From the NCBI GenBank assembly GCA_951406725.2, contig OX597824.1, positions 92,504,001 to 92,568,000 on the forward strand: a stretch of 64,000 nucleotides of DNA, given 5' to 3'. Shown here piece by piece: positions 1-63,000 of this stretch. The position numbers were made by a program. Source of the stretch: Octopus vulgaris. Taxonomy: Eukaryota. Every line of letters starts with the position of its first letter. Within the stretch, counting starts at the first letter, position 1.

Positions 1-3000
1 CAACAACAGGGAGGACGTGGAACAAATATAATATTATTGGACGCTCAGAAAAGAAGGAAAGAAGGAGGGTTTAACGTTTCGAGAGAAGCTCTTCGTCGGA
101 AACATAGAAAAAGGAAAGATCCAGAGAAGAGAAGACAGAGGAAAAAAATCGCCAACGGTACAGACGCGGTCACATTTATATATATATATATATTACTTAC
201 ATATATATATATATATATATATATATATATATATATATATATATATATATATATATATATATAAGTTTAACAATTAAGGATAACCTCTTAATAAGGAATC
301 TTAACAAGAAATTATCGGGTAGTTAGCGTGAAAACCTCATAAAAGAAAAGAATTCGAAAATAATTTTTTTCTTTTGAACAAATTAATTATATCTATATTG
401 TATAGAGGGCATTATTACACATAAATGCCTCACACTAAGAGGGACTAAGTCATTACTACCAAAATTATACTAATCATACCCAAATGCAGTTTTTCAAAGC
501 AAGACATTTAAAAAAATGAATTTAGTTCTGTATCACCGTGATTTCACATTCAACTTGCGTCTTATGATCCTCAGCAGAACTGATTCTGAACACATCAAAA
601 ATAAACTACCAACCTTACGTAGCGAAGACGACCAGACAACTGATCACTCCGGCCAAGCACATGGAATGTTTATAAATCATATATCCGGTAAATGGCGGGC
701 TTTTCACGAACTGCATGTCGGGTAATAAAAAGTATTTCGGAATAAGTTTAACAATTAAGGATAACCTCTTAATAAGGAATCTTAACAAGAAATTATCGGG
801 TAGTTAGCGTGAAAACCTCATAAAAGAAAAGAATTCGAAAATAATTTTTTTCCTTTTGAACAAATTAATTATATCTATATTGTATAGAGGGCATTATTAC
901 ACATAAATGCCTCACACTAAGAGGGACTAAGTCATTACTACCAAAATTATACTAATCATACCCAAATGCAGTTTTTCAAAGCAAGACATTTAAAAAAATG
1001 AATTTAGTTCTGTATCACCGTGATTTCACATATATATATATATATATATATATATATATATATATAAATATATATATATATATATATATATATATATATA
1101 TATATATATATATATATATATATATATATATATATATATATATGTAAGTAATATCTCTCTCTCTCTCTCTCTATATATATATATATATATATATATATTA
1201 CTTATATTCGAAGAAATAAATTGTAAAGAAAGCCATGCTTCGACATAGGGGAAGATCAAATCCCAACCATCACAGAAAAGCCGAAAAATTGTTTGTTAAA
1301 GGTTTTCAACTACGTCTGATGCGCTCTGAAACCATTAAGGAAAGCAAACTAGACACGCAGTGCTGGTTGAGAGCTGTAGAGAGATGTAGACTGGGATTTA
1401 GACACTTGGGATCTGGCAGAATACAAATGGTATGGTCCATAGAGCACATGGGGAGTATGTTGGACTACAAGGTAGGATAATTAACTAATATTTAAAATGT
1501 TGTTTTATGGCCAAGATCCAAAGTAGGTTTCACAGCCAAATCTTCAGACCCTTTTCTCCACTTTAGAAATCCCTAATCTTTTATGGGTTCAGCTCTTTTG
1601 CTTTTATCTTCCCAGCTGGCCATTGTCGTTTGATCGAATTTCAATATATCACTGTTTTAGAGAGAATTAGGGAACGAGAAAGAGAGAGAGAGAGAGAGAG
1701 GGGGGGAAAGAGAGAGAGGGGGGAAAGAGAGATAGTAGGATGTGCGCTAATCTATTGAGGTAAGACAGGTCTAACGAATACAACCACGTGCCACGTGACA
1801 GGTTGTCATGGATAGTGTTTTGTCTAATCCGTACATCTACTATATTGATATGCACCTACTTCCGTCGGTTCACTGATTCAGGTACTATGGTGTAGGTCAT
1901 TGCAGGTACTATGGTGTAGGTAGTATGGCGTAGGTCAGTTTGTTCCCTCAACAAATTGAGTATAGAAATTGTTTATTTCGTGCAGAGAGAAAAAAATTCA
2001 GATTGTATTCAACACTACGGTACACCGTGTACCTAGTTTCATATGGAAGTGTGGCGGTAAATAAGAATGGTAAGATTAAGCAGTATTATAAGACAAGCCA
2101 TTTCAATGTCGGCGAATTTTCTGAGAGAAGAAGGAAGAACGAGTGGCGTTATATGAGCCTAATCATCATGCAATATTCTCGTTTGTTTTCATCTTTCCAT
2201 GAGAAGATGTCACACCATAGGGAAATATTACGTTGCTTATGAAGAGGAAACTTCTGACAACTGTAAGGCCATCTGTCCATCGAAAATATGCCTCAATGAA
2301 TTCCATCTGACATATGCATGTATGAAAAAACATTGAAATGATAGCAACGTGTTGATATATATATATATATATATATATATATATATATATATATATATAT
2401 ATATATATATATATATACGAGAATGAGCTGAACAGTTCCGGGCTTACGGGAAAAGGAAAAGAAAATACAGGATGATCACTTAATTATGGTTTTATTCAAC
2501 TCATTCCCCTCCCAAACTAACACACATATTACAGCGGATCTTCAGTTTTTTTAAGCCTTGTCAGAGAACTCGGAAGGTTGGCTCCCCAACAAGGTCTTTC
2601 GCGATACCCTTAAAGCCAAGAAATTCTCTGCATCACTCGTATATAATACATACATATATATATATATATATATATATATATATATATATATATATATATC
2701 AATTTATTTATCTATCTATTTATATTGGGTATGGTAGTTAAGTTCAGCAAAAATTTAGATTCAGATGAATATGGCACGTAATTTGAGGCACCAGAATTTA
2801 ATATAGTATTATCCTTACAATTTCATAGTAAGGTGATTAAAATCAAAATAAGCAACAAGGATATCGAGAGGTAATGCAGTACGATCCGTTCATGCAACTC
2901 CATTTAATTCAACAAGGCAATCATTGCATCAATTGCTCTGTATTTTAAATTGGTGCAATGATTGCATTGTTCAATTAAATGGGATTGCATGAAACGATCG

Positions 3001-60000: not shown

Positions 60001-63000
60001 CCGTAAATTGGCTTTCTTCAAGATAGAAGAGATTCTCAACCCCAAACTAATCTTTACCAATGGCAAAAGGTCGTCTATATCTGTTTCTTTATTACCCACA
60101 AGGGGCTAAACATAGAGGGGACAAACAAGGATAGACAACGGTCGTCTATATCAAAATGGTCTCTGTTTTGTCATTGTCCGGCTTAGGTTTCCCAGCAAAC
60201 AGCTTCCGATCTCCTGCCAAGGCTCTCAGGATCATTGAGATACACATGCGACTTCAGAGTAACTAGATATTGTGGTGGTATAAAAAAGTGGACTTCTTTG
60301 AAAATTTCCTATACAATTTCACTATGAAAATCCCTGAAGCAAAACTACAAAAAATGTTTCGGAAATTTTGAGAATAAAAAATGTGATAATTATTTGTAAT
60401 GGCAATTATGCTAATTAAAAAAATTAAATGATGTATATTGTTTTTAATAAGAGGTCATATATCATGAATTAGTGCAAAGTTGAAATAATATTTTGCAGCA
60501 TCAATTATTCAAACAGTAAGTAATATTTTATCGTTATACGCTTGGCTGTGTCGTCTAAGTATTTGAAACGGTTATTATTTGTTTGTCTATATATTTGAAA
60601 CGGTTTTTATATTTTATAGATAGGATTTTGTCAAATTATGTCGTAAAATCAAGTGGTTCTATATTCGTTACTTGTTTTCCCATTTTCAAATTTCAAGTGT
60701 GTGTGAGGCAATTAAAGTTACAAATAACTTATGACGAGTTATTGCTTAGGCTCAAGGATTTGTGAATCGTGTAGCGCAGATACACACACACACACACACA
60801 CACATAGAACTGGCATAATAATGAACGTTTATTCAATGCAGTTTTTGTGGAATATAGTAATTTACATTTGAGAGGGAATAGTAGCGAGCAACATGGATGC
60901 TTCAGCATGTTCGCCAGCCTATATGTAATTCTTGTATGCGCAAATACATGCAAATATATACACACAGATAAATTATATATATATATATATACTTCTTCTG
61001 TATATATATATATATATATATATATATATATATATATATATATATGTATGTGACCACGTGTGTACCGTTGGCGATTTGTTTTCCTCTGTCTTCCCTTCTC
61101 TGGATCTTTCCTTCTCCTATGTTTCCGACGAAGAGCTCCGCTCAAAACGTTAAACCCTCCTTTTTTCCTGAGCACCCAATAATACTATATTTGTTCTACA
61201 TCCTCGCGTTTTTGTGGGTTTTTTTTGTGCTTTCATATTTGGATTAACTATATATATATGAACTTATATATATATATTCAGAGAGAGAGAGAGAAAAAGA
61301 TAGAGAGAGAGAGAGAGACAAACAAACAAACCATAGCATTACATATCGTATTTCTATCTTTTATTTCCTTCTGTCATCAGATTGCCGCCGTGTGAGTACG
61401 ACACGGAAGTGACTCTGATCTGAGAGGAAGACATAAGTGTATAATAAATCCGAAAATACAAGTTACTGGTTTGCGCCCGTTTGTCAATCAGGCTGATCGA
61501 ATACGTAGGCAGTAGTCAGCAGGAAGAATGGAAAATTAACAAACTGTGAGTTTCTTGAAATATGTTTCAGACATGTTTTAATTTCTGAAGTAAATGCTAC
61601 AGCAATTTAGAGTGGAGAAAAATGTAATTCTCAGTTATGGTAAGAGGAGTAAACATAAAGCGACCTCTGTGGGTATCTCTCTCTTTTTCTCTCTCTCTCT
61701 CTCTCTCTCCCTCTCTCTCTCTATCTGTCTCTGTGTATATATATATATATATATATATATATATATATATATATAGAAGGTTTGGAGATGATGTACAAGT
61801 ATTTTATAATAGAAGAAATGAGCTACTCAGAAATTCGGATGGTTTCATATTTACAGATATTTACTTGTATATTACATGTTTTTATACATCATGTAACTTA
61901 TATCATATATCATATATTAGCGCTTTCGTCCGTTCTGGTGGAGTTTTCATATATATAAATATATATATATTATATATATATATATTATATATATATATAT
62001 ATATATATAAATAATATATATATATATACATACAAATATATACATATATATATATATATATATATATATATATATATATATACATATATATGTGCGTGTG
62101 TGTGTGTAGAGTGTGGCTGTGTGGTAAGAAGCTTGCTCCCAACTGCATGTTTTCGTGTTCAATCCCACTGTGTGGCAACGTGGGTGTGTGTCATGTAATA
62201 CAATCTCGGACCGACCAAAGCCTTCTCAGTGGATTTCATTGACGGAAACAGGAAGAAGCCCGTCGTATATATATATATGCATTTCTATATGTCTGTGTGA
62301 GAAAGAGACAAGTAGAGAGTGTATATATATATATATATATATATATATATATATATATATATATATATATATATATATATATATATATATACAGGTTTGT
62401 GTGTGTGTATGTGTTTATATATACTTACAGAGATAGAAATAGATAGAAATATATATGTGTTTATATATACAGCCCACGAGTCTTGGATTTGTATGTCTAA
62501 CTGCTCACTTATTAATATATTAATTAATTAATTTAATATTCCCTATTTCCCTATTTGTCAAATAATTCGGTAGCAATTATCTCGGAATGCTATGAAGTAT
62601 TATTCATTTCCGCTCTGATAATAATTAATAATATACAGTGAACAAATATATTTTCGGATGAAGCTGGTGATAACCGTCGGCTGCACTGCGCATAGCGTTG
62701 TGAATTGTGAGGTCAAATCAAGGAATGATCTGACAATACTACGCGATTCTCTGAAGTTATAAATCATTCCTTTTCATACAAAATGGATACACTTGCAAAG
62801 GGAATGTGTAAGGAATTTCCCTCCGATGCATCCATCATTTCCGAATTGTCTCTATTTCGCTCTATTGTAATTTTAATTATATCATGTACAGGCAAGTGGT
62901 GTAACCGCAACAGTAAAGAAATAGGTATATATATATATATATATATATATATATATATATATATATATATATATATATATATATATATATATATAGATAG

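What the first reader, a model, noticed from the sequence alone, without database searches (positions are those of the whole stretch)
1..61249. Window-wide pattern: multiple distinct HHR-bearing mini-retroelement families colonising microsatellites
Seen: eight HHR or HHR-derived motifs (near 70-105, 524-581, 6112, 12734, 25755, 44203, 46431, 61121) from about five sequence groups, plus weaker relics (2991, 52778, 54611). Nearly all are embedded in (TA)n or (AAT)n, and no autonomous Penelope ORF is in the window. Inference: the genome may hold a very large, diverse load of ribozyme retroelements that use microsatellites as landing sites. Intact sense copies within introns could cleave pre-mRNA.
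Basis: inference. Interest (0 to 1): 0.8.

Follow-up and report, generated by a model that had tools for sequence, protein, structure and literature searches.

The report
Small hammerhead-ribozyme repeats beside microsatellites
A microsatellite-packed stretch of an animal genome holds a few short repeat copies carrying a minimal hammerhead-ribozyme motif of the kind already known from Penelope-like retroelements; only one copy looks intact, so this is a fairly ordinary new example of a known thing.

Summary
Partly confirmed. Seven of the eight main sites hold a hammerhead-like motif, but they reduce to three sequence families.

- **Family A** (~230 bp, four loci). Only 46431-46465(+) has an intact core. 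It shows every feature published for Penelope-type minimal hammerheads, and 0 of 1000 shuffles gave such a motif.
- **Family C.** A 481-bp unit in a 1.6-copy partial tandem with a variant hammerhead-like junction; 2 of 1000 shuffles gave one.
- **Family B** (two loci). Decayed, and its strand is ambiguous.

Site 12734 and the three "relics" are not supported. No Rfam hammerhead family matches any copy.

Microsatellite flanks are real but not specific. tRNA-derived SINEs in the same window abut microsatellites just as often: 6 of 6 at one end or more and 2 of 6 at both ends, for each class, against 0.27 and 0.03 at random.

No Penelope RT or GIY-YIG ORF was found in the 245 ORFs scanned.

Minimal hammerheads spread through animal genomes, (TA)n targeting by Penelope-like elements, and non-autonomous derivatives of those elements are all published. 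The genome-wide load could not be tested here, and nothing supports pre-mRNA cleavage.

The parts
46339..46577 (+). Family A copy, ~230 bp. Imperfect TA/TG-rich DNA lies on its 5' side and (TA)n at 46573-46590 on its 3' side.
   Evidence: BLAST copies at 83-89% identity; alignment with flanks.
46431..46465 (+). The only intact minimal type-I hammerhead. Helix I is GTTT/AAAC. The core is CTGACGA with an unpaired A after A9. Helix II is GAGC-TCC-GCTC, closed by G10.1-C11.1. Then come GAAA, the ACGT palindrome (helix III, formed in trans) and H17 = T.
   Evidence: Descriptor hit; 0 of 1000 shuffles; no Rfam hammerhead match.
61026..61260 (+). Family A copy flanked by (TA)n on both sides (60974-61044 and 61265-61317). 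The motif at 61121-61155 is dead: CCGACGA, and AAAA for GAAA.
1..193 (-). Family A copy, cut off by the window start. Its 5' side abuts (TA)n at 177-262. The motif at 69-103 has U4->C (CCGACGA) and one broken helix II pair.
44112..44330 (-). Diverged relative of family A (A'). Its 3' side abuts (TA)n at 44044-44111. The motif at 44203-44238 reads CTGTAGA (A6->T). The helix II stem is kept with a different loop, the ACGT palindrome is kept, and helix I shows a G-C to C-G swap.
   Evidence: 56.2 bits with model R1, which was built with this copy.
264..1029 (-). Family C: a 481-bp unit in a 1.6-copy partial tandem (264-744 and 745-1029; 99.6% identical). It is flanked by (TA)n on both sides (177-262, 1030-1197). 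Read on the minus strand it is a 5'-truncated more-than-unit copy.
524..581 (-). Variant hammerhead-like three-way junction. Helix I is 7 bp (AGTTCTG/CAGAACT). The boxes are CTGAGGA and GAAA. Helix III is ATCA-CGG-TGAT and H17 is A. Helix II is weak: 3 bp, an internal loop, then 3 bp with a GCAA loop, and no G10.1-C11.1 pair. A truncated second copy lies at 1005-1029.
   Evidence: 2 of 1000 shuffles; hammerhead-like fold -8.7 against MFE -11.7 kcal/mol; no Rfam hammerhead match.
6066..6235 (+). Family B copy. (AAT)n at 5930-6064 lies on its low-coordinate side only. From 6117 the motif reads CTGATGA-AA-GCTG..CAGC-C-GAAA-CGCT-GTG. The strand of the element is ambiguous: on the minus strand it looks like a retroposon with an (ATT)n tail.
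25707..25870 (+). Family B copy. (AAT)n at 25623-25706 lies on its low-coordinate side and is also the tail of a tRNA-like SINE at 25524-25622. From 25760 the motif reads CTGATGA-A-GGCTG..CAGCC-AAAG, so the GAAA box is lost.

Best explanation
The window holds old copies of short non-autonomous retroelements that descend from, or parasitise, Penelope-like elements (PLEs) and carry the PLE-type minimal type-I hammerhead.

Shown:
- Family A is a discrete ~230-bp unit whose best-conserved block is the ribozyme motif.
- One copy (46431-46465) keeps a complete catalytic core, a 4-bp helix I, a 4-bp helix II closed by G10.1-C11.1, an unpaired A after A9, and an ACGU palindrome where helix III should be.
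- Family C is a 481-bp unit inserted as a 5'-truncated 1.6-mer between (TA)n tracts, with a variant hammerhead-like junction on the strand that makes the truncation 5'.

Inferred from published work on the class:
- The element RNA is made as a multimer or read-through transcript.
- Two motifs pair through the palindrome to build helix III.
- The RNA cuts itself after GUU (family A) or AUA (family C) to unit length.
- A PLE reverse transcriptase and GIY-YIG endonuclease encoded elsewhere in the genome copies it into (TA)n-rich DNA.

Most copies here are dead. Family B is probably a decayed member of the same kind. Sites 12734, 2991, 52778 and 54611 are not part of it.
For: - The motif at 46435 meets all four features that Cervera and de la Pena list as arguing against a random origin. 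[quoted passage not shown] It also has the short 4-5 bp helix I they describe (PMC4209133, read; sequence).
- A descriptor with those features hits once in the window and in 0 of 1000 dinucleotide shuffles.
- Between family A and its diverged relative at 44203, the motif block is 80-85% identical against 25-65% in the flanks.
- In that relative the helix II stem is kept while its loop changes, and helix I shows one G-C to C-G swap.
- Family C: the boxes plus helix III >=4 bp plus helix I >=6 bp occur once in the window and in 2 of 1000 shuffles.
- Partial tandems (pseudo-LTRs) and more-than-unit copies are the published build of PLEs (PMC8557442 passages; PMC4209133).
- (TA)n flanks lie on both sides of C and of A61121, and at the 3' side of the three A-lineage copies whose 3' end lies in the window (46339-46577, 61026-61260, 44112-44330). 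The fourth copy's 3' end is off the window. (TA)n is the published preferred target of Naiad and Neptune PLEs.
- The two-box core pair is over-represented: 12 against 1 to 3.1 in four kinds of control.
Against: - No Rfam hammerhead family matched at the gathering score over the whole window.
- None matched at E<=10 in small searches around A, A', B and C. In the whole-window E-value search only 150 of 379 rows were shown.
- No PLE RT or GIY-YIG ORF lies in the window, so the link to PLEs rests on the motif type and the insertion style alone.
- Folding energies give no support. Z-scores were -0.24 to -1.19, and the hammerhead folds are 3-4 kcal/mol above the minimum free energy.
- The single compensatory pair is not significant with four sequences: 128 of 500 shuffles did as well.
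- The strict descriptors were written after I had seen the hits.
- Only 1 of 4 A-lineage copies is intact.
- The C motif lacks G10.1-C11.1 and has a weak helix II.
- Neither B copy passes any descriptor, and B has a microsatellite on one side only, which fits an (ATT)n-tailed retroposon on the opposite strand.
- tRNA-derived SINEs without hammerheads show the same microsatellite abutment. A LINE partner with microsatellite tails could therefore move these elements instead.
- A hammerhead-like site with a 6-bp helix I also occurs inside a DNA-transposon-like MITE at 56836(-), which shows that good-looking partial motifs arise by chance.
Confidence: 0.6

Rival explanations
1. These are ordinary LINE-mobilised SINE-like repeats. 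The microsatellites are their own 3' tails, or priming sites for target-primed reverse transcription, rather than landing sites chosen by a Penelope endonuclease. The hammerhead motif is either a passenger or irrelevant to their movement.
For: - A tRNA-derived SINE has a (TA)n tail in 6 of 6 copies.
- A CR1-like LINE 3' end at 32831-33600 ends in (ATT)11.
- Another tRNA-like SINE ends in (AAC)n(AAT)n.
- Abutment rates of hammerhead-like elements and of tRNA-SINE controls are identical: 6 of 6 at one end or more, and 2 of 6 at both.
- Family B has a microsatellite on one side only.
- The three A-lineage copies whose 3' end lies in the window all have (TA)n there.
Against: - Families A and C show no tRNA-like head: ARAGORN found 0 genes.
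- Their 3' ends are unlike those of the tRNA-SINE or the LINE, by reading.
- The 1.6-mer partial tandem of C is typical of PLEs, not of LINE-driven SINEs.
- The ribozyme block is the most conserved part of family A, which argues that it matters to the element.
Confidence: 0.2
2. The copies are not separate 'mini-retroelement families'. They are solo terminal repeats (pseudo-LTR fragments) or truncated ends of full-length autonomous PLEs that lie outside the window.
For: - Cervera and de la Pena report that most genomic minimal hammerheads occur as single motifs, probably from truncated PLEs.
- In Xenopus, retrozyme families match the termini of annotated PLEs (bioRxiv 10.64898/2026.07.22.740005, passages read).
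Against: - In family A, both copies with both ends inside the window share the same 5' and 3' ends. The third, cut by the window start, shares the 5' end; its 3' end is off the window. Random truncation should not give this.
- Shared ends would still fit a solo pseudo-LTR, so this rival overlaps the best explanation.
Confidence: 0.12
3. The motifs are chance look-alikes in AT-rich, purine-patchy repeat DNA and have never been ribozymes.
For: - No Rfam hammerhead match and no thermodynamic signal.
- The compact generic descriptor is met in 14 of 100 shuffles.
- Eight of the 12 two-box sites have no helices, and one good-looking site lies in a MITE.
Against: - 0 of 1000 shuffles for the A motif and 2 of 1000 for the C motif.
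- The A motif carries features that were not needed to find it: the bulged nucleotide, G10.1-C11.1 and the palindrome.
- The block is conserved across diverged lineages.
Confidence: 0.08

Closest known systems
Minimal type-I hammerheads (min-HHR) in the terminal repeats of Penelope-like elements (Cervera and de la Pena 2014, PMC4209133; parts 1-2 of 4 of the text read)
   Same: Family A matches on the type-I layout, the short 4-bp helix I, the unpaired nucleotide between A9 and 10.1, G10.1-C11.1, the absence of a stable helix III (a palindrome takes its place, so it must act as a dimer), and on occurring as dispersed single copies in several sequence families.
   Different: No PLE ORF or recognisable pseudo-LTR lies in the window. 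Helix II is 4 bp rather than the 6-8 bp described for Schistosoma and Drosophila. The supplementary alignments of that paper were not seen, so this exact family may already be listed there.
Non-LTR retrozymes of animals (Cervera and de la Pena 2020, PMC7229834, passages read; Li, Clavereau and Pollet 2026 preprint 10.64898/2026.07.22.740005, abstract and passages read)
   Same: They are also short, AT-rich, non-coding units with a type-I hammerhead, occurring as monomers, dimers or multimers. They are proposed to be non-autonomous derivatives of PLE terminal repeats. Family C (a 481-bp unit in 1.6 copies) resembles a truncated dimer.
   Different: Retrozymes are described as ~170-400 nt units carrying canonical hammerheads, many with loop-loop contacts. 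Family A is monomeric with a minimal motif. The C unit is longer, and its motif has a weak helix II and matched no Rfam hammerhead model.
(TA)n target preference of Naiad and Neptune Penelope-like elements (Craig et al. 2021, PMC8557442, passages read)
   Same: Insertions lie between (TA)n tracts so that no target-site duplication can be read, as for C and A61121.
   Different: Naiads lack canonical hammerheads. In this window hammerhead-free tRNA SINEs show the same association, so the pattern is not diagnostic of PLE machinery.
Sm-alpha SINE-like hammerhead repeats of Schistosoma (recalled from memory; mentioned only in passing in the texts read)
   Same: A short dispersed repeat that carries a type-I hammerhead.
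   Different: Sm-alpha carries a canonical hammerhead with a proper helix III. I did not compare sequences.

Membership tests
PLE-type minimal hammerhead (min-HHR) | Conserved boxes CUGANGA and GAAA in type-I order | tested here: met
   Met at 46435 (A), 6117 (B) and 574(-) (C). Not met at 69-103, 61121, 44203 or 25760, each of which has 1-2 box changes.
PLE-type minimal hammerhead (min-HHR) | [quoted passage not shown] | tested here: met
   An A in 4 of 4 A-lineage copies and in both B copies. A U in C, but there an unpaired U lies on the 3' side too.
PLE-type minimal hammerhead (min-HHR) | G10.1-C11.1 pair closing helix II | tested here: met
   G-C in 4 of 4 A-lineage copies and in B25760. 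B6117 has A.C. C has U.U followed by C-G, so the feature is not met for C.
PLE-type minimal hammerhead (min-HHR) | Palindromic 15.2-16.2 and a minimal helix III, implying action as a dimer | tested here: met
   ACGT in 4 of 4 A-lineage copies. B6117 has ACGC and B25760 has GTGT, so both are decayed. C instead has a near-palindromic 4-bp hairpin.
PLE-type minimal hammerhead (min-HHR) | Families within a genome showing covariation and compensatory changes | tested here: inconclusive
   One G-C to C-G change in 8 pairs among 4 sequences; 128 of 500 shuffles did as well.
PLE-type minimal hammerhead (min-HHR) | Location in the terminal repeat of an element encoding RT and GIY-YIG endonuclease | not testable with these tools
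   None of the 245 ORFs scanned in the window matched RVT_1 or GIY-YIG. The rest of the genome was not available.
PLE-type minimal hammerhead (min-HHR) | RNA self-cleavage | not testable with these tools
   This needs in vitro transcription of monomer and dimer constructs.
Rfam hammerhead families | Covariance-model score at or above the gathering score | tested here: not met
   0 matches at gathering over the whole window. No hammerhead row at E<=10 in 44100-46600, 264-1029, 6066-6246 or 46356-46572. Minimal motifs without helix III may lie outside those models; that is my inference.
Non-LTR retrozyme | Tandem units of roughly 170-400 nt, each carrying a canonical type-I hammerhead | tested here: inconclusive
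   C is a 481-bp unit in 1.6 copies with one complete and one truncated variant motif. Families A and B are single units.
tRNA-derived SINE | tRNA-like head | tested here: not met
   ARAGORN found 0 genes in the window. No tRNA-like head is visible in A, B or C, unlike the SINE families seen.

The most novel reading that the evidence does not exclude
This genome may hold a class of monomeric, ~230-bp, SINE-like parasites of Penelope-like elements. Their only strongly conserved part would be a minimal hammerhead, and they would insert specifically into (TA)n. That would make the ribozyme a cis-acting requirement for being mobilised by the Penelope machinery, rather than a mere processing signal, and would make these elements a driver of the genome's extreme microsatellite content.
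Probability: 0.25. Interest if true: 0.55.

Novelty: new member of a known kind. Interest (0 to 1): 0.3.

Why it matters
If the reading holds, it adds new sequence families to the catalogue of minimal hammerheads tied to Penelope-like elements. It also gives a clean small case: two diverged lineages that share little beyond the ribozyme block. That case could be used to ask whether the ribozyme is needed for retrotransposition.

The broader point is useful for annotation rather than surprising. In a genome this rich in microsatellites, short retroposons of several kinds sit at (TA)n and (AAT)n, so microsatellite adjacency alone says nothing about the mobilising machinery.

The main ideas are already in print:
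- Minimal hammerheads are widespread in animal genomes (2014).
- Penelope-like elements prefer (TA)n targets (Craig et al. 2021, which cites Arkhipova 2006).

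Tried and rejected
- **Rfam.** I ran gathering and E-value searches on the whole window and on four sub-regions. They gave no hammerhead, only microsatellite-driven miRNA noise.
- **Folding.** Single-strand folds of seven motifs had z-scores of -1.19 to +0.17. A co-fold of two A motifs gave an extended duplex, not the hammerhead dimer. Evaluating the hammerhead folds directly put them 3-4 kcal/mol above the minimum free energy. I take all of this as uninformative for such small motifs.
- **Covariance model.** A MAFFT alignment of A with B put them out of register, so I built the model from family A alone. 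It recovered only its four training copies; the next hit scored 13.9 bits at E = 0.41. It gave no link to B, C or the 'relics'.
- **Other two-box sites** (10097, 61380, 56836, 44581, 40538, 14738, 9663, 3862, 1547). Eight lack helices. 56836(-) has a 6-bp helix I but no U16.1, and it lies inside a MITE with ~35-bp terminal inverted repeats. I rejected all nine as chance.
- **Naming the organism.** The CR1-like RT fragment found only distant named relatives in birds and bivalves at 33-45% identity; the closest hits, at 57-59%, were unnamed. The mariner fragment found unnamed or ant relatives. A 16-base SINE string was in no paper. The taxon stays undetermined.
- **Search for a Penelope ORF.** Only ORFs of >=55 aa with entropy >=3.6 were scanned, 245 of 477. 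Short or frameshifted remnants could have been missed.
- **Not seen.** The supplementary files of the papers were not opened. They may list this very hammerhead family.
- **Closed collections.** The genome collection on hand is prokaryotic, so I did not use it.

Full report
**What the window is.** It is AT-rich animal-type DNA: the 2-kb windows run mostly 27-44% G+C. Microsatellites fill much of it. There are 165 perfect blocks covering 12.4% of the bases, and Tandem Repeats Finder lists 58 rows.

The window also holds several interspersed repeats:
- a ~155-bp tRNA-derived SINE in six copies;
- a second, longer tRNA-derived SINE;
- a third tRNA-like SINE with (AAC)n(AAT)n tails;
- the 3' end of a CR1-like LINE ending in (ATT)11;
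- a mariner fragment;
- several foldback or MITE-like elements.

I could not name the organism.

**Checking the sites.** I read all 11 reported places and searched the window against itself. The eight main sites fall into three families plus one unsupported site.

*Family A* has three copies at 83-89% identity: 46339-46577(+), 61026-61260(+) and 1-193(-), the last cut by the window edge. A diverged relative lies at 44112-44330(-).

*Family B* has two copies at 82% identity: 6066-6235 and 25707-25870.

*Family C* is a 481-bp unit present as a 1.6-copy partial tandem, 264-744 plus 745-1029, at 99.6% identity.

Four sites are not supported. Site 12734 has no CUGANGA box. Site 2991 is one arm of the inverted repeat 2842-3040. 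Site 52778 is a simple hairpin. Site 54611 only resembles the 3' part of the A motif. None of them matched a covariance model built from family A at E<=10.

**The family A motif.** At 46431-46465 the sequence reads GTTT / CTGACGA / A / GAGC-TCC-GCTC / GAAA / CGT / T / AAAC. It has these features:
- both conserved boxes;
- a 4-bp helix I;
- a 4-bp helix II closed by G10.1-C11.1;
- one unpaired A between A9 and 10.1;
- the palindrome ACGT where helix III should be, so helix III can form only between two copies;
- a GUU cleavage triplet.

These are the features Cervera and de la Pena (2014) give for the minimal hammerheads of Penelope-like elements. They also list them as arguing against a chance origin.

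A generic compact descriptor is met once in the window and in 14 of 100 shuffles. A descriptor that asks for the published features is met once in the window and in 0 of 1000 shuffles. I wrote that descriptor after seeing the hit.

The other three A-lineage copies are dead. Two read CCGACGA, one of those also has AAAA for GAAA, and the relative at 44203 reads CTGTAGA.

Between family A and that relative, the ribozyme block is 80-85% identical while the flanks are 25-65% identical. The helix II stem is kept although its loop differs. Helix I shows one G-C to C-G swap, which is not significant with four sequences: 128 of 500 shuffles did as well.

**The family C motif.** On the minus strand, 581 to 524 reads AGTTCTG / CTGAGGA / 22 nt / GAAA / TCACGGTGA / T / A / CAGAACT. 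Helix I has 7 bp and helix III has 4 bp.

Helix II is weak. It has three pairs, an internal loop, then three more pairs with a GCAA loop, and it lacks the G10.1-C11.1 pair.

Boxes plus helix III >=4 bp plus helix I >=6 bp occur once in the window and in 2 of 1000 shuffles.

Read on this strand, the insertion is a 5'-truncated, more-than-unit copy lying between two (TA)n tracts. That is the published build of Penelope-like insertions.

**Family B.** Both copies keep CTGATGA followed by an unpaired A. One keeps a 5-bp helix II (GGCTG/CAGCC) and the other keeps GAAACG. Neither copy passes any descriptor.

A microsatellite, (AAT)n, lies on one side only. On the opposite strand the unit therefore looks like a retroposon with an (ATT)n tail, like the LINE end at 33600. 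I rate it a probable but unproven decayed member.

**Negative tests.**
- Rfam gave no match at gathering score.
- Rfam gave no hammerhead row at E<=10 in four small searches that cover A, A', B and C.
- In the whole-window E-value search only 150 of 379 rows were shown, all microsatellite-driven.
- Folding energies are no better than for shuffled sequence, and the hammerhead folds are not the minimum-energy folds.
- No RT or GIY-YIG domain was found in 245 ORFs, chosen from 477 of >=55 aa by sequence complexity.

**Is the motif density above chance?** The two-box pair CTGANGA-N7-25-GAAA occurs 12 times. The controls gave:

| Control | Expected count | Runs reaching 12 |
|---|---|---|
| Whole-window shuffles | 2.1 | 0 of 300 |
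| 1-kb block shuffles | 3.1 | 0 of 200 |
| Reversed sequence | 1 | not applicable |
| 60 permuted-box controls | mean 2.65, maximum 8 | 0 of 60 |

Three of the 12 sites are A, B and C. Of the other nine, eight lack helices, and one (56836, minus strand) lies inside a MITE. Even so, most of the excess is not made of convincing ribozymes.

**Microsatellite association.** Six hammerhead-like elements have both ends inside the window. All six abut a perfect microsatellite at one end or more, and two of six at both ends. Random placement gives 0.26-0.28 and 0.02-0.035.

The six copies of a tRNA-derived SINE that has no hammerhead give exactly the same counts. All six have a (TA)n tail.

So the association is real but general for short retroposons here. 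It cannot by itself show that microsatellites are landing sites rather than tails.

Published work does report (TA)n as the preferred target of Naiad and Neptune Penelope-like elements, with target-site duplications unreadable for that reason.

**How it most likely works.**
- *Shown:* the motif anatomy, the family structure, the conservation of the ribozyme block, the partial tandem, and the flanks.
- *Inferred from the literature on the class:* transcription as a multimer or read-through RNA, pairing of two motifs through the palindrome, self-cleavage to unit length, possible circularisation by a host ligase, and copying into (TA)n-rich DNA by a Penelope RT/endonuclease encoded elsewhere.

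**The intron claim.** Nothing supports it. No host exon was detected. Only one motif is intact. The nearest same-strand partner is 14.7 kb away and is dead. Published minimal hammerheads cleave poorly even as dimers. In Xenopus, retrozymes are depleted from introns.

**Comparison with what is known, and novelty.** The closest known things are:
- the minimal hammerheads of Penelope-like elements (2014);
- the non-LTR retrozymes of animals (2020), argued in a 2026 preprint to be non-autonomous derivatives of Penelope terminal repeats;
- the (TA)n target bias of Penelope-like elements (2021).

Family A meets every sequence-level feature of the first. The link to a Penelope element and the cleavage itself could not be tested. 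I file the finding as a new member of a known kind, with low to moderate interest.

I did not open the supplementary alignments of the 2014 and 2020 papers. They may already contain this family.

Noticed in passing
window 18397-18549(+), 29862-30015(-), 63093-63239(+), 62114-62265(+), 23631-23789(+), 21770-21918(-): A ~155-bp tRNA-derived SINE in six copies. Each has a (TA)n tail directly after a conserved 3' hairpin (GACGG..CCGTC). I used it as the control class for microsatellite abutment.
   Followed up: partly
window 14553-14927(+), 26633-27009(+), 45821-46144(+), 23875-24065(-), 8749-8983(-); 19077-19257 matches 45960-46144 at 88% but aligns poorly with the rest: A second, longer (~390 bp) tRNA-derived SINE family with a clear tRNA-like head (GGCCCAGTGGTTAGGG ... 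GGTTTCGATTCCC).
   Followed up: partly
window ~5480-5639(+) and 25524-25706(+): A third tRNA-like SINE end (GATTCCGAGTTCGATTCCAGGC) followed by an (AAC)n(AAT)n or (AAT)n tail. The second copy's tail is the same (AAT)n that abuts family B at 25707.
   Followed up: no
window 32831-33632(+): The C-terminal part of a CR1-like LINE reverse transcriptase ORF. Relatives carry Exo_endo_phos and RVT_1 domains, and the best hit is 59% identical. A short 3' UTR and an (ATT)11 tail follow.
   Followed up: partly
window 48904-49600(-): A mariner (Mos1-type) transposase remnant split over two frames. It matches HTH_48 at 3.6e-12 and Transposase_1 at 5.8e-23.
   Followed up: partly
window 56630-56935: A MITE-like element with ~35-bp terminal inverted repeats. 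It contains a chance hammerhead-like site at 56836(-) with both boxes and a 6-bp helix I but no U16.1.
   Followed up: partly
window 2842-3040, 11761-11964, 12194-12520: Three long near-perfect inverted repeats (84-91% arm identity), which look like foldback or MITE-like elements. The first explains the 'relic' reported at 2991.
   Followed up: no
window 46864-47512, 22406-22797, 30386-30612: A ~229-bp unit in tandem (2.1 copies at 47023-47511) that also has dispersed copies. I saw no hammerhead boxes in it.
   Followed up: no
window 6247-7419 and 40540-42092: Two very long (ATC)n-based arrays that share 69% identity over ~1.2 kb, so they look like a duplicated complex microsatellite region. 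Their translations are poly-Asp or poly-His runs and gave no Pfam match.
   Followed up: no
whole window: The pair CTGANGA-N7-25-GAAA occurs 12 times against 1 to 3.1 in four kinds of control. Only 3 or 4 of the 12 sites are hammerhead-like, so the rest of the excess is unexplained. Purine-rich patches are a possible cause.
   Followed up: partly
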